64,000 bases of DNA, from the NCBI RefSeq assembly GCF_057098645.1, contig NZ_CM169472.1. One strand, written 5' to 3'. Below, in pieces: positions 21,001-27,000 of the stretch. How positions within the stretch are numbered: position 1 is the first letter of the stretch; the number at the start of each line of letters is the position of its first letter. The position numbers are program-made.

Positions 21001-24000
21001 GAGCGGCTATTGGCGCACAGGCTGGAGCGGCACTGAAAAAATGCGTACTGGAACTGGGCGGTTCGGATCCGTTTATTGTGCTTAACGATGCCGATCTGGA
21101 ACTGGCGGTGAAAGCGGCGGTAGCCGGACGTTATCAGAATACCGGACAGGTTTGTGCAGCGGCAAAACGTTTTATCATCGAAGAGGGAATTGCTTCGGCA
21201 TTTACCGAACGTTTTGTGGCAGCTGCGGCAGCCTTGAAAATGGGCGATCCCCGTGACGAAGAGAACACTCTCGGACCAATGGCTCGTTTTGATTTACGTG
21301 ATGAGCTGCATCATCAGGTGGAGAAAACCCTGGCGCAGGGTGCGCGTTTGCTACTGGGCGGGGAAAAGATGGCTGGGGCAGGTAACTACTATCCGCCAAC
21401 GGTTCTGGCGAATGTTACCCCAGAAATGACCGCGTTTCGGGAAGAAATGTTTGGCCCCGTTGCGGCAATCACCGTTGCGAAAGATGCAGAACATGCGCTG
21501 GAACTGGCTAATGATAGTGAGTTCGGCCTTTCAGCGACCATTTTTACCACTGACGAAACACAGGCCAGACAGATGGCGGCACGTCTGGAATGCGGTGGGG
21601 TGTTTATCAATGGTTATTGTGCCAGCGATGCGCGAGTGGCCTTTGGTGGCGTGAAAAAGAGTGGCTTTGGTCGTGAGCTTTCCCATTTCGGCTTACACGA
21701 ATTCTGTAATATCCAGACGGTGTGGAAAGACCGGATCTGACGCGACATATTCAGCTCTGATATACTCGCAGGTCTTTTCAGACCTGCGGTCCAGGAGTAG
21801 AAAGTGGCAGTCGCCATGGATAATGCAATTTTAGAAAACATCTTGCGGCAAGTGCGGCCGCTCATTGGTCAGGGTAAAGTCGCGGATTATATTCCGGCGC
21901 TGGCTACGGTAGACGGTTCCCGATTGGGCATTGCTATCTGTACCGTTGACGGACAGCTTTTTCAGGCCGGAGACGCGCAAGAACGTTTTTCCATTCAGTC
22001 TATTTCCAAAGTGCTGAGTCTCGTTGTCGCCATGCGTCATTACTCCGAAGAGGAAATCTGGCAACGCGTCGGCAAAGATCCGTCTGGATCACCGTTCAAT
22101 TCTTTAGTGCAACTGGAAATGGAGCAGGGTATTCCGCGTAATCCGTTTATTAATGCCGGTGCGCTGGTGGTCTGCGATATGTTGCAAGGGCGATTAAGCG
22201 CACCACGGCAACGTATGCTGGAAGTCGTGCGCGGCTTAAGCGGTGTGTCTGATATTTCCTACGATACGGTGGTAGCGCGTTCCGAATTTGAACATTCCGC
22301 GCGAAATGCGGCTATCGCCTGGCTGATGAAGTCGTTTGGCAATTTCCATCATGACGTGACAACCGTTCTGCAAAACTACTTTCATTACTGCGCTCTGAAA
22401 ATGAGCTGTGTAGAGCTGGCCCGGACGTTTGTCTTTCTGGCTAATCAGGGGAAAGCTATTCATATTGATGAACCTGTGGTGACGCCAATGCAGGCACGGC
22501 AAATTAACGCGCTGATGGCGACCAGTGGTATGTACCAGAACGCGGGGGAGTTTGCCTGGCGGGTGGGACTACCGGCGAAATCTGGCGTTGGTGGCGGTAT
22601 TGTGGCGATTGTTCCGCATGAAATGGCCATCGCAGTCTGGAGTCCGGAACTGGATGATGCAGGTAACTCGCTTGCGGGCATTGCCGTCCTTGAACAATTG
22701 ACGAAACAGTTAGGGCGTTCGGTTTATTAATGCAGTCTCTCGATCCACTCTTCGCGCGTTTATCCCGTTCAAAATTTCGATCTCGCTTTCGTTTTGGCAT
22801 GAAAGAGCGTCAGTATTGTCTGGAGAAAGGCGCGCCAGTCATCGAACAACATGCGGCGGATTTTGTCGCTAAACGTCTTGCTCCGGCATTACCGGCTAAT
22901 GACGGTAAGCAAACCCCCATGCGCGGGCATCCGGTGTTTATCGCTCAGCACGCCACTGCAACCTGTTGTCGCGGTTGTCTGGCTAAGTGGCATAACATTC
23001 CGCAGGGTGTTTCGTTAAGCGAGCAACAACAACGTTATATCGTGGCGGTAATCTATCACTGGCTGGTTATACAGATGAATCAGCCATGATAATTGCGGAA
23101 AACGATAAAATAGCATTCCCAGGGTACCTTTATTTGCCGCCGCTGTCAGCGAACATGCTATCCTTTATGAGAATTTACTTATTACGTTGAGATAATTGCC
23201 ATCCGCAATTGTATAGACAGATAATTAATGCATGTACACCCCATTTCAACTTTCCGTGTGTTCCAGGAAGGTCATCTGCTACGTAATAGCATCGCTATTT
23301 TTGCGCTAACCACGCTGTTCTATTTTATTGGTGCAGAGTTACGGCTGGTTCACGAACTTTCTCTTTTCTGGCCGCTGAATGGCGTAATGGCGGGGGTGTT
23401 TGCCCGCTATGTCTGGCTTAATCGACTGCATTACTATGCGATCAGTTATGTGGCGATGCTGGTTTATGATGCCATAACCACCGAATGGGGACTGGTTTCA
23501 CTGGCTATCAATTTCTCCAATATGATGTTTATTGTTACCGTCGCCTTACTGGTCGTGCGGGATAAGCGTCTGGGGAAAAATAAGTATGAGCCAGTAAGTG
23601 CCTTACGGCTATTTAATTACTGTCTGATTGCCGCATTATTATGCGCTATTGTCGGGGCGATTGGTTCGGTCAGTATTGATAGTCTGGATTTCTGGCCTTT
23701 GCTTGCGGACTGGTTCAGTGAGCAATTCTCAACGGGCGTGTTGATCGTGCCTTGTATGCTGACGTTGGCTATTCCTGGAGTGCTGCCGCGCTTTAAAGCA
23801 GAACAGATGATGCCCGCCATCGCGCTTATTGTGTCGGTTATTGCCTCGGTAGTCATTGGCGGAGCGGGGAGTCTGGCGTTCCCGCTGCCTGCATTAATCT
23901 GGTGTGCAGTGCGCTATACGCCGCAGGTAACATGTCTGTTGACCTTTGTTACCGGTGCGGTGGAAATCGTACTGGTGGCAAATTCGGTGATTGATATCTC

Positions 24001-27000
24001 GGTCAGTTCGCCGTTCTCCATTCCGGAAATGTTCTCCGCACGTCTCGGTATTGCCACGATGGCGATATGCCCAATTATGGTTTCTTTTAGCGTGGCAGCG
24101 ATCAATTCGCTAATGAAGCAAGTTGCGCTGCGAGCCGACTTTGATTTTCTGACTCAGGTTTACTCACGGTCCGGTCTTTATGAGGCGCTGAAAAGTCCAT
24201 CGCTGAAACAGACACAACATCTGACTGTCATGCTGCTTGATATCGACTATTTCAAAAGTATTAACGATAACTATGGACATGAATGTGGCGATAAAGTGTT
24301 AAGCGTGTTTGCCCGGCATATTCAGAAGATTGTCGGTGATAAGGGGTTGGTGGCGCGCATGGGCGGCGAAGAATTTGCTGTTGCAGTGCCGTCGGTGAAT
24401 CCTGTCGATGGTCTGCTAATGGCGGAAAAAATCCGTAAAGGCGTTGAACTGCAACCATTCACCTGGCAACAAAAAACGCTTTATCTCACGGTAAGTATTG
24501 GCGTCGGTAGTGGTCGCGCATCGTACCGAACGCTGACCGATGACTTTAATAAATTGATGGTCGAAGCCGATACGTGTCTGTATCGCTCGAAGAAAGATGG
24601 GCGCAACCGTACCAGCACTATGCGTTACGGTGAGGAAGTTGTCTGACATCTTTGTTCATTCAGAGCGATTTAAATGCAATGTGTTCTACCACTTTATGAT
24701 CCAGGAAAAGGCGTTTTTCCTCGATTAAACCATGATCCGCGCCACACTTTTCTCATAAAACTGCTCATTAATCATCAGGAGTTGATCAAAACAGGGGTTC
24801 GTCGTATTAAAGTTTGCTAACCTGTCGTACCAATTCAAACAGGTTGTATGACTAATCAGAAGGGAACCCATTGTGAAAACACTAAATCGTCGCGATTTTC
24901 CCGGTGCACAGTATCCAGAACGTATCATTCAGTTTGGTGAAGGTAACTTCCTGCGCGCCTTTGTTGACTGGCAAATCGATCTCCTGAATGAGCACACCGA
25001 TCTGAATTCTGGCGTGGTCGTTGTTCGTCCGATTGAAACTTCATTCCCGCCGTCACTGAGCACGCAGGATGGTCTGTACACCACCATTATCCGTGGCCTG
25101 AATGAGAAGGGGGAAGCGGTCAGCGACGCGCGTCTGATTCGCTCGGTTAATCGTGAAATCAGCATCTACAGTGAATACGATGAATTCCTGAAACTGGCGC
25201 ACAACCCGGAAATGCGCTTTGTTTTCTCTAACACCACCGAAGCGGGTATCAGCTACCATGCGGGCGATAAATTCGATGACGCGCCAGCGGTAAGTTATCC
25301 CGCAAAACTGACCCGTCTGCTATTCGAGCGTTTTAGCCATTTCAACGGTGCGCTGGATAAAGGTTGGATCATCATCCCGTGTGAGTTGATCGACTACAAT
25401 GGCGACGCGTTGCGTGAACTGGTGCTGCGCTATGCGCAAGAGTGGGCACTGCCAGAAGCATTTATTCAATGGCTGGATCAGGCTAACAGCTTCTGTTCTA
25501 CGCTGGTGGACCGTATCGTTACCGGTTATCCGCGTGATGAAGTAGCTAAACTGGAAGAAGAACTGGGTTATCACGATGGTTTCCTCGACACCGCTGAACA
25601 CTTTTACCTGTTTGTGATTCAGGGACCGAAATCCTTAGCGACCGAGCTGCGTCTGGACAAATATCCGCTCAACGTGCTGATTGTTGACGATATTAAACCG
25701 TATAAAGAACGCAAAGTGGCAATCCTCAACGGTGCACATACCGCGCTGGTGCCGGTGGCGTTCCAGGCAGGGCTGGATACCGTAGGTGAAGCGATGAACG
25801 ATGCTGAAATTTGCGCATTCGTTGAAAAAGCCATCTACGAAGAAATTATTCCGGTTCTGGATTTGCCTCGCGATGAACTGGAGTCTTTCGCCAGTGCAGT
25901 CACCGGGCGTTTCCGTAACCCGTACATCAAGCATCAGCTGCTGTCTATCGCGCTCAACGGTATGACCAAGTTCCGCACCCGCATCCTGCCGCAGCTACTG
26001 GCAGGGCAGAAGGCAAACGGCACACTTCCGGCGCGCCTTACTTTCGCATTAGCGGCATTGATTGCGTTCTATCGCGGTGAGCGTAACGGAGAAACATATC
26101 CGGTACAGGACGATGCACACTGGCTGGAACGTTATCAGCAACTCTGGAGCCAGCATCGTGACCGTGTTATCGGTACCCAGGAACTGGTTGCGATTGTGTT
26201 GGCAGAAAAAGACCACTGGGAGCAGGACCTGACGCAAGTGCCTGGTTTGGTCGAGCAGGTGGCTAATGACCTGGATGCGATTCTCGAAAAAGGGATGCGC
26301 GAAGCTGTACGCCCGTTGTGCTAATACTCTGAACCCGGTTTCGACCGGGTTTCTTATTTCACTATATTAGTTACAACATCCTACAAGCTTACAACATTAA
26401 CAGGTGCCACATGCAGCACCTGTTAATGTTGTAAGCTTGTAGGTAATTTGTAAGTCGTGTCTTGAGAATGTGATCGTAATCACGTTTAATAGGGCGACTT
26501 TTCCACGCCTGAAGATAACCATGATCGTTCGTCCACAACAACACTGGCTGCGCCGTATTTTTGTCTGGCATGGCTCAGTATTATCCAAGATATCCTCGCG
26601 CTTACTACTCAATTTTCTCTTTTCTATCGCTGTTATTTTCATGCTGCCCTGGTACACGCATCTGGGCATCAAATTCACCCTCGCACCGTTCAGCATTCTC
26701 GGTGTCGCCATCGCCATTTTTCTTGGTTTTCGTAATAATGCCGGTTACGCCCGTTACGTTGAAGCGCGAAAACTTTGGGGGCAGTTGATGATTGCCTCAC
26801 GGTCGTTACTGCGCGAGGTAAAAACGACATTGCCGGATTCGGCAAGTGTAAGGGAGTTTGCCCGGCTGCAAATCGCCTTCGCCCACTGTTTACGCATGAC
26901 ATTACGCAAACAGCCACAGGCGGAAGTGCTGGCTCATTATCTCAAGACTGAAGATCTTCAGCGTGTACTGGCTTCGAACTCTCCAGCTAACCGCATCTTG

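What the first reader, a model, noticed from the sequence alone, without database searches (positions are those of the whole stretch)
23228..24646. dgcF reads as a 472-aa membrane-anchored GGDEF protein
The continuous ORF includes a long N-terminal multi-TM region upstream of the GGDEF domain. I recall shorter annotations for this gene, which would miss the membrane sensor module if the long form is real.
Basis: inference. Interest (0 to 1): 0.2.

Follow-up and report, generated by a model that had tools for sequence, protein, structure and literature searches.

The report
Full-length dgcF; K-12 copy is truncated
This is the intact 472-residue form of the E. coli diguanylate cyclase gene dgcF (yneF); the shorter 315-residue version in textbooks exists because strain K-12 lost 498 bases of the gene, which was already published in 2014, so the finding is correct but ordinary.

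Summary
The ORF at 23228..24646 (+) is real: ATG start, 472 codons, TGA stop. It lies in the E. coli locus sad-glsB-yneG-dgcF-uxaB. RefSeq annotates the same 472-aa CDS in an identical genome.

It is not a mis-called start on this sequence. K-12 lacks window 23163..23660, a 498-bp segment holding 65 bp of upstream DNA, the ATG and the first 144 codons.

The same deletion junction is present in 1217 of 5426 complete E. coli genomes. The intact segment is present in 4196.

Richter et al. 2014 (PMC4287979) and Sarenko et al. 2017 (PMC5635695) already reported this.

ATG 23228 is the only canonical start that fits. An in-frame TAA lies two codons upstream. Conservation across Escherichia, Citrobacter, Enterobacter and Lelliottia begins at residue 9. 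Residues 9-144 are as conserved as the rest of the protein.

The protein has about ten transmembrane helices, then a long helix leading into a complete GGDEF domain (GGEEF active site, no RxxD inhibitory site). Small additions made here:
- The N-terminal module is a divergent MASE1-type domain.
- Its predicted fold resembles ECF-transporter S components.

Verdict: already known, low interest.

The parts
23228..24646 (+). dgcF (yneF) coding sequence, full-length allele, 472 aa plus TGA stop
   Evidence: identical CDS annotated in NZ_CP168984; GGDEF hit E 2.4e-40
23222..23230 (+). In-frame TAA (23222-23224), one TTA codon, then the ATG start (23228-23230). No canonical start can lie further upstream.
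   Evidence: Sequence read. Start-candidate table: no Shine-Dalgarno-like match before the ATG. Orthologues all start at this alignment column.
23163..23660 (+). 498-bp segment absent from K-12-type alleles: 65 bp of upstream DNA plus codons 1-144 and the first base of codon 145
   Evidence: Alignment to K-12 NEB5-alpha and MG1655. Segment present in 4196 of 5426 genomes. K-12 junction present in 1217 of 5426. No flanking repeat or microhomology.
23699..23701 (+). TTG (Leu158 here) that serves as the annotated start of the 315-aa MG1655 dgcF (b1522)
23167..23225 (+). Two overlapping sigma-70-like promoter matches: ATGAGA-18-TG-GATAAT at 23167-23196 and TTGCCA-18-GATAAT at 23196-23225. Both lie inside the K-12 deletion.
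   Evidence: Consensus scan (5 sites found against 3.3 expected in the region, so weak evidence). Weak, mainly RpoS-dependent expression of the intact allele was reported in PMC4287979.
23276..24139 (+). N-terminal membrane module, residues 17-304. Predicted helices: 17-37, 49-60, 67-84, 89-111, 122-147, 155-179, 191-210, 213-229, 232-251 and 267-304. The last runs on as a linker into the GGDEF domain. Divergent MASE1-type domain.
   Evidence: AF2 models. Family of 403 representative clusters. MASE1 hits in 46 of 73 homologues, 13 of them at about the gathering level. Family profile against DgcE MASE1: 38.4 bits, hhalign 91%.
24134..24610 (+). GGDEF (diguanylate cyclase) domain, residues 303-461
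   Evidence: Pfam PF00990 E 2.4e-40, full model coverage; TIGR00254
24362..24376 (+). GGEEF active-site (A-site) motif, residues 379-383. The RxxD inhibitory-site position upstream reads GDKG, so there is no I-site.
   Evidence: motif and upstream residues KIVGDKGLVARM; same conclusion in PMC4287979

Best explanation
Window 23228..24646 is the intact, ancestral allele of the E. coli diguanylate cyclase gene dgcF (formerly yneF).

Architecture. The gene encodes an inner-membrane protein. Its first ~300 residues form a bundle of about ten helices, with both ends in the cytoplasm (inferred). This bundle is a divergent MASE1-type sensor module. Its last helix (about residues 265-304) continues out of the membrane straight into a catalytically complete GGDEF domain.

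Mechanism, shown. Relatives of this protein make c-di-GMP in a GGDEF-dependent way when expressed in Shigella and, as the K-12 remnant, in E. coli. Deletion in uropathogenic CFT073 lowers biofilm formation and adherence.

Mechanism, inferred. An unknown signal perceived in or at the membrane module changes the packing of the linker helices in a dimer. This brings two GGDEF domains together to condense 2 GTP into c-di-GMP. There is no product feedback, because the RxxD I-site is missing.

The shorter annotation. The 315-aa annotation belongs to K-12-type genomes. There a 498-bp deletion removed the promoter region, the start codon and helices 1-4 and most of helix 5, leaving an unexpressed remnant. 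In the present sequence ATG 23228 is the start.
For: ORF and domains:
-.
- Identical CDS annotated by RefSeq in a 100%-identical genome and in O104:H4 and CFT073.

Deletion:
- Mapped to 23163..23660 against two K-12 records.
- MG1655 b1522 is 315 aa from a TTG.
- Population counts: 4196 genomes with the segment and 1217 with the K-12 junction, out of 5426.

Start codon:
- In-frame stop two codons upstream.
- Orthologues from four genera start at the same column.
- Identity is 12-50% over residues 1-8 and 69-85% over residues 9-144. The latter equals or exceeds the rest of the protein.
- Distant homologues (26-40% identity, about 460-490 aa) align from about residue 6-35 of the query, near their own N-termini.
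- AF2 confidence is high from residue 11.

Topology:
- Loop 111-121 has 6 Lys/Arg, after four helices.
- Loop 151-167 is acidic.

MASE1 relationship.

Literature:
- 5' deletion in K-12, start misannotation, hydrophobic ~300-aa N-terminus, A-site but no I-site, weak RpoS-dependent expression (PMC4287979).
- DgcF not detectable in K-12 (PMC5635695).
- c-di-GMP synthesis by Shigella DgcF measured by LC-MS/MS (PMC11327459).
- CFT073 deletion phenotypes complemented by WspR (PMC3484386).
- The 315-aa K-12 form is active when overexpressed and is inactivated by E224A (PMC11757272).
Against: - No Shine-Dalgarno-like sequence precedes ATG 23228, and reported expression is very weak. No experimental N-terminus or transcription start was found in the searchable literature.
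- The E. coli protein does not itself match the Pfam MASE1 model even at E<=10. The family profile matches DgcE but not UhpB, PdeA or PdeF.
- Within E. coli, codons 1-144 show dN/dS of about 0.8, but on only 7 substitutions.
- The signal and the signalling mechanism are inferred, not shown.
Confidence: 0.93

Rival explanations
1. Translation in this strain really begins at an internal codon (Met54, or the TTG at residue 158 used in K-12). Under this reading the 472-aa ORF is an over-extension and the short annotation is the correct gene model.
For: No Shine-Dalgarno match before ATG 23228. The reference genome MG1655 annotates a 315-aa product, and that product is enzymatically active when overexpressed.
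Against: - Residues 9-53 are strongly conserved across genera, including an invariant TTLFYF..LSLFWPLNG block. Met54 is Ile or Leu in Citrobacter-like orthologues.
- Residues 9-144 are 69-85% identical between genera.
- The domain family aligns from the N-terminus in 26-40% identical homologues.
- Candidates Met54 and GTG57 also lack a Shine-Dalgarno match.
- The TTG start was chosen in K-12 only because the upstream sequence is deleted there.
Confidence: 0.03
2. The long ORF is intact but functionally decaying in E. coli. It would be a cryptic or nearly silent gene on its way to loss, as already happened in K-12-type lineages, so the membrane module no longer matters.
For: - Very weak expression of the intact allele.
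- 22% of complete genomes carry the deletion. Other lesions exist, such as the HS-02 pseudogene with an internal stop, and many truncated or chimeric variants appear in the protein search.
- dN/dS of about 0.8 in codons 1-144 between this window and CFT073, on 7 changes.
Against: - The ORF is intact in 77% of genomes across phylogroups and in other genera at 70-85% identity.
- dN/dS is 0.05-0.17 for codons 145-472.
- Deletion phenotypes in CFT073 and Shigella.
Confidence: 0.1
3. The N-terminal region is only a membrane anchor or dimerisation scaffold, not a sensor. The cyclase would then be constitutively active once made and be regulated by expression alone.
For: - No ligand or signal is known.
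- Shigella DgcF gave constitutively high reporter signal during infection when expressed from a plasmid.
- The K-12 remnant, which lacks helices 1-5, is still active when overexpressed.
Against: - An anchor does not need about ten helices.
- It also does not need nearly invariant polar or special residues inside them across a family at 26-40% identity: R39, W48-P49-N51, R60, D81, N98, W162, G211-G212-G214, W225-C226-A227 and S270-R272-G274.
- The module is homologous to the MASE1 domain of DgcE.
- The predicted fold resembles ligand-binding ECF S components.
Confidence: 0.2

Closest known systems
E. coli DgcF/YneF, full-size form, as described for O104:H4, O157:H7, 55989, CFT073 and Shigella flexneri (Richter et al. 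2014; Sarenko et al. 2017; PMC11327459)
   Same: Same gene, same locus (sad-glsB-yneG-dgcF-uxaB), same 472-aa length and start. 99% protein identity to the main E. coli cluster.
   Different: Nothing of substance. There are a few amino-acid differences, for example V11 against L11.
E. coli K-12 MG1655 dgcF b1522 (NP_416039.1, 315 aa)
   Same: 98.7% nucleotide identity over the shared part and an identical GGDEF domain.
   Different: K-12 lacks 498 bp (window 23163..23660). It therefore has no native promoter region, no ATG and no residues 1-144. It is annotated from a TTG at residue 158, is marked as a pseudogene by PGAP in other K-12 records, and is not expressed.
MASE1 domain proteins (Pfam PF05231), in particular the N-terminal domain of E. 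coli DgcE (YegE)
   Same: - An integral-membrane module of about 300 aa at the N-terminus of a c-di-GMP enzyme.
- The DgcF-family profile aligns colinearly with DgcE residues 12-251 (38.4 bits; hhalign 91%).
- 46 of 73 family members hit the MASE1 model over almost its full length.
   Different: - E. coli DgcF itself falls below detection by the Pfam model.
- No detectable similarity to the MASE1 domains of UhpB, PdeA or PdeF.
- DgcF joins the module directly to GGDEF, without the PAS domains and the degenerate EAL domain of DgcE.
ECF-transporter S components (RibU, ThiT, FolT, BioY, BtuM, CbiM)
   Different: - No sequence similarity to any PDB chain and no Foldseek hit.
- Only about half of the DgcF module can be covered.
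- No transporter partner genes lie next to dgcF.
- The comparison rests on a predicted model. Whether it reflects common ancestry was not tested.

Membership tests
dgcF / yneF orthologue group of E. coli | Conserved chromosomal position between yneG and uxaB, and near-identity to known dgcF alleles | tested here: met
   The locus sad-glsB-yneG-dgcF-uxaB is identical in order to K-12, O104:H4 and CFT073. 5414 of 5426 genomes match at 95-100% identity.
GGDEF domain (Pfam PF00990 / TIGR00254) | Significant full-length match to the domain model | tested here: met
   PF00990 E 2.4e-40, 138.4 bits against a cut-off of 23.8, model positions 1-161 of 161. TIGR00254 E 4.7e-38.
Active diguanylate cyclases | Intact GG(D/E)EF A-site and the conserved substrate- and metal-binding residues | tested here: met
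   GGEEF at residues 379-383. D338, D340, K343, N346, D347, H351, D355 and R377 are nearly invariant in the family alignment. The signature KNDHDRGGEEF is listed for YneF in PMC3484386.
Active diguanylate cyclases | Demonstrated c-di-GMP synthesis | not testable with these tools
   Literature only. Shigella DgcF raises c-di-GMP by LC-MS/MS and the GG->AA mutant does not. The K-12 315-aa form is active in a biosensor assay.
Product-inhibited diguanylate cyclases (I-site) | RxxD motif five residues upstream of GG(D/E)EF | tested here: not met
   The corresponding residues are G-D-K-G (KIVGDKGLVARM-GGEEF). This agrees with PMC4287979.
MASE1 (Pfam PF05231) | The protein itself matches the curated model at or above the gathering score (29.8 bits) | tested here: not met
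   No MASE1 hit for the full protein at E<=0.01 or for residues 1-300 at E<=10.
MASE1 (Pfam PF05231) | Homology to accepted MASE1 domains, shown through intermediate sequences or profiles | tested here: met
   - Homologues of the DgcF N-terminus (E 1e-15 to 1e-54 to the query) match MASE1. 46 of 73 match at E<=0.01, 13 of 73 at E<=4e-7, and the best is 3.2e-11. The matches are colinear over model positions 4-297 of 299.
- The family HMM against DgcE MASE1 gives 38.4 bits, and hhalign gives 91% probability over 218 columns.
- Caveats: the hydrophobic bias score is high (27.4), and there is no match to UhpB, PdeA or PdeF.
ECF-transporter S components | Six-helix substrate-binding membrane protein working with an ECF T/A module; family-level sequence match | tested here: not met
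   [not shown]

The most novel reading that the evidence does not exclude
[quoted passage not shown] Here it appears to be a far-diverged MASE1 domain related to that of DgcE.

Its predicted structure contains a unit with the fold of ECF-transporter S components, which bind vitamins and metals inside the membrane. If that resemblance is real, DgcF and MASE1 sensors in general would perceive a small molecule bound within the membrane bundle.

A second point: the 'K-12' deletion is not a laboratory or K-12 peculiarity. It is a natural loss allele with one identical junction in 22% of complete E. coli genomes.
Probability: 0.3. Interest if true: 0.35.

Novelty: already known. Interest (0 to 1): 0.1.

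Why it matters
The practical importance is modest. Anyone who takes the MG1655 gene model (315 aa) as 'DgcF' is working with a promoterless, N-terminally truncated remnant. A 2025 study still cloned that form.

In this strain, and in about three quarters of E. coli, the gene is complete and already annotated correctly, so no re-annotation is needed. Assigning the N-terminus to the MASE1 superfamily and noting the S-component-like fold gives a starting point for finding the unknown signal. That is a lead, not a result.

Tried and rejected
- Direct Pfam assignment of residues 1-300: only a chance-level SAYSvFN match at E 0.13.
- hhalign of the family N-terminus against a four-sequence MAFFT profile of E. 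coli MASE1 domains (UhpB, DgcE, PdeA, PdeF): no signal, probably because that mini-alignment is poor. Pairwise tests then gave DgcE only.
- Internal duplication of the membrane module (N-half against C-half, four ways of splitting): no signal.
- Foldseek against the PDB: nothing below E=1. phmmer against PDB sequences: no hits. The AlphaFold-database library was not available.
- Microhomology or repeats at the deletion end-points: none.
- Counting the K-12 junction with the default E-value limit was confounded by 30-nt half matches. It was repeated at E<=1e-15.
- Within-species dN/dS for codons 1-144: too few substitutions to interpret. Between-genus identity was used instead.
- Rfam on 20000..28000: no RNA family.
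- A leaderless mRNA from the 23196-23225 promoter-like site was considered. The -10 hexamer ends 3 nt before the ATG, which is too close for a start at the A of the ATG. It remains untested.
- Povolotsky & Hengge 2016 could not be retrieved by DOI.
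Full report
**Observation.** The window holds one long ORF at 23228..24646 on the + strand: ATG start, 472 codons, TGA stop. 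Its neighbours are glsB (21804..22730), yneG (22730..23089) and uxaB (24873..26324). This is the E. coli locus sad-glsB-yneG-dgcF-uxaB. Over 1.8 kb the window is 100% identical to strain UTME-3, where RefSeq annotates exactly this CDS (WP_000558062.1, 'diguanylate cyclase'). O104:H4 and CFT073 carry the same 1419-nt gene model.

**Where the shorter annotation comes from.**
- MG1655 b1522 (NP_416039.1) is 948 nt, or 315 aa, and begins with a TTG that corresponds to Leu158 here (window 23699).
- Aligning K-12 to the window shows that K-12 lacks 498 bp, window 23163..23660. That segment holds the last 65 bp of the yneG-dgcF spacer, the ATG, and codons 1-144 plus one base.
- There is no microhomology or repeat at the end-points.
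- In another K-12 record, PGAP marks the remnant as a pseudogene 'missing N-terminus'.
- The short form is thus a consequence of a real deletion, not of a late start choice on this sequence.

**Prior publication.**
- Richter et al. [quoted passage not shown] - The same paper described full-size YneF as having a hydrophobic N-terminus of about 300 aa, an intact A-site and no I-site.
- Sarenko et al. 2017 used the 55989 allele for the same reason and could not detect DgcF in K-12 (PMC5635695).

**Population frequency.**
- 5414 of 5426 complete E. coli genomes contain the locus.
- 4196 contain the 498-bp segment.
- 1217 contain the exact K-12 junction, tested with a 60-mer at E<=1e-15.
- The carriers include HS, ATCC 8739, NCTC9100 and isolates from pigs, dogs, ducks, chickens and people. 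The deletion is therefore a common natural allele rather than something specific to K-12.
- The outgroup genera all have the long form, so the deletion is the derived state.

**Start codon.**
- An in-frame TAA sits at 23222-23224, so ATG 23228 is the first possible start.
- Between it and the first conserved residue (Phe9) there is no other canonical start.
- Orthologues from E. fergusonii, Citrobacter, Enterobacter and Lelliottia all begin at the same alignment column.
- Identity to them is 12-50% over residues 1-8 and 69-85% over residues 9-144. The latter is as high as for residues 145-300 and higher than for the GGDEF domain.
- Met54 is replaced by Ile or Leu in some orthologues.
- Remote homologues (26-40% identity, mostly 460-490 aa) align from about query residue 6-35, near their own N-termini.
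- AlphaFold2 confidence rises above 90 from residue 11.
- Against this, there is no Shine-Dalgarno-like sequence in front of the ATG. That fits the very weak, mainly RpoS-dependent expression reported.
- Two promoter-like matches (23167-23196 with an extended -10, and 23196-23225) lie inside the K-12 deletion. The scan finds only slightly more sites than shuffled controls, so this is weak evidence.

**Catalytic domain.**
- Residues 303-461 are a complete GGDEF domain (E 2.4e-40).
- The active-site motif GGEEF lies at residues 379-383, and the usual substrate- and metal-binding residues are conserved.
- The position of the inhibitory RxxD motif reads GDKG.

**Membrane module.**
- Residues 17-304 form about ten helices in a confident model (pLDDT 90.7, pTM 0.84; the N-terminal domain alone gives pLDDT 90.5, pTM 0.89).
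- The loop after helix 4 (residues 111-121) carries six Lys/Arg, and the loop after helix 5 is acidic. With ten helices this puts both termini and the GGDEF domain in the cytoplasm (inference).
- The last helix (about 265-304) runs without a break into the GGDEF domain.
- The K-12 deletion removes helices 1-4 and most of helix 5.

**Family of the membrane module.**
- Pfam gives no hit for the E. coli sequence itself.
- A search of 1.84 billion representative proteins finds 403 clusters at E<=0.001. Among the full-length hits listed, nearly all have the same N-terminus-plus-GGDEF architecture.
- Of 73 aligned members, 46 hit Pfam MASE1 at E<=0.01 and 13 at E<=4e-7, which is roughly the gathering level. 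The best hit is 3.2e-11. The matches are colinear over nearly the whole model.
- An HMM of the family's N-terminal part matches the MASE1 domain of E. coli DgcE at 38.4 bits (profile 10-252 against DgcE 12-251). hhalign gives 91% probability. UhpB, PdeA and PdeF give nothing.
- I therefore regard the module as a divergent MASE1-type domain. [quoted passage not shown]

**Fold comparison.**
- Foldseek and phmmer find no solved relative.
- I recall, without having tested it, that Pfam places MASE1 in a clan with such proteins. If so, the resemblance is expected.
- No searchable paper mentions MASE1 together with ECF transporters.

**How it most likely works.**
- Shown in the literature: Shigella DgcF raises c-di-GMP and the GG->AA mutant does not.
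- Shown in the literature: CFT073 lacking yneF forms less biofilm in glycerol medium and adheres less, and both defects are rescued by the foreign cyclase WspR.
- Shown in the literature: the 315-aa K-12 remnant is active when overexpressed.
- Inferred: the membrane module perceives a signal, possibly a small molecule bound within the bundle. It then transmits the signal through the continuous helix 265-304 to set the mutual orientation of two GGDEF domains in a dimer. Output is not limited by product inhibition.

**Verdict.** The reason for the shorter annotation is a strain-specific deletion that has been in the literature since 2014. The finding is already known and needs no re-annotation in this genome. 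The only new points are minor: the frequency of the deletion allele, the MASE1 assignment and the S-component-like predicted fold.

Noticed in passing
window 23163..23660; K-12 junction at L001 1663/1664: The 'K-12' deletion junction is identical in 1217 of 5426 complete E. coli genomes. These include commensals HS and ATCC 8739 and many animal isolates. The literature read here describes the deletion as specific to K-12.
   Followed up: yes
[not shown]
   Followed up: partly
window 23228..23659 against L009 (CFT073) 516..947: Synonymous divergence between this allele and CFT073 is about five times lower in codons 1-144 (dS 0.019) than in codons 145-300 (dS 0.11), with dN/dS of about 0.8. The counts are very small (2 synonymous, 5 non-synonymous). 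The cause could be recombination or chance.
   Followed up: no
L010 (strain HS-02, NZ_CP172818) 1785..2849: A different dgcF lesion. The two halves of the K-12 junction probe lie 393 bp apart instead of 558, and PGAP calls the gene a pseudogene with an internal stop and a missing N-terminus.
   Followed up: no
proteins P0005, P0008, P0009 (alignment A2): P0005 (482 aa) carries a 10-residue tandem duplication, FKSINDNYGH, inside the GGDEF domain. P0008 and P0009 are ORFs in which the DgcF N-terminal 300 residues (97% identity) are followed by a HipA-domain sequence, which suggests rearrangements within dgcF in some isolates.
   Followed up: no
hit H53, NZ_CP141086.1 (strain KE48, 42-kb record) and four other plasmid records: Five matches to the dgcF 5' segment lie on records classed as plasmids (97.6% identity in H53). 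They could be mis-assembled chromosome fragments or genuinely mobilised copies.
   Followed up: no
window 23190..23197 and 23219..23226; also 23088..23096 and 23191..23199: The short motifs AGATAATT (29 bp apart) and GATAATTGC (103 bp apart) are repeated in the yneG-dgcF spacer. They coincide with the two -10-like hexamers. An inverted pair AATTGCGGA/TCCGCAATT (23091 and 23202) brackets the spacer. These may be regulatory or may be chance.
   Followed up: no
hit H30, NZ_CP136900.1 (strain LI60C3): Only query positions 14-1021 match, and tam is annotated next to the match. This suggests a deletion that removes the 3' part of dgcF together with uxaB and yneE in that strain.
   Followed up: no
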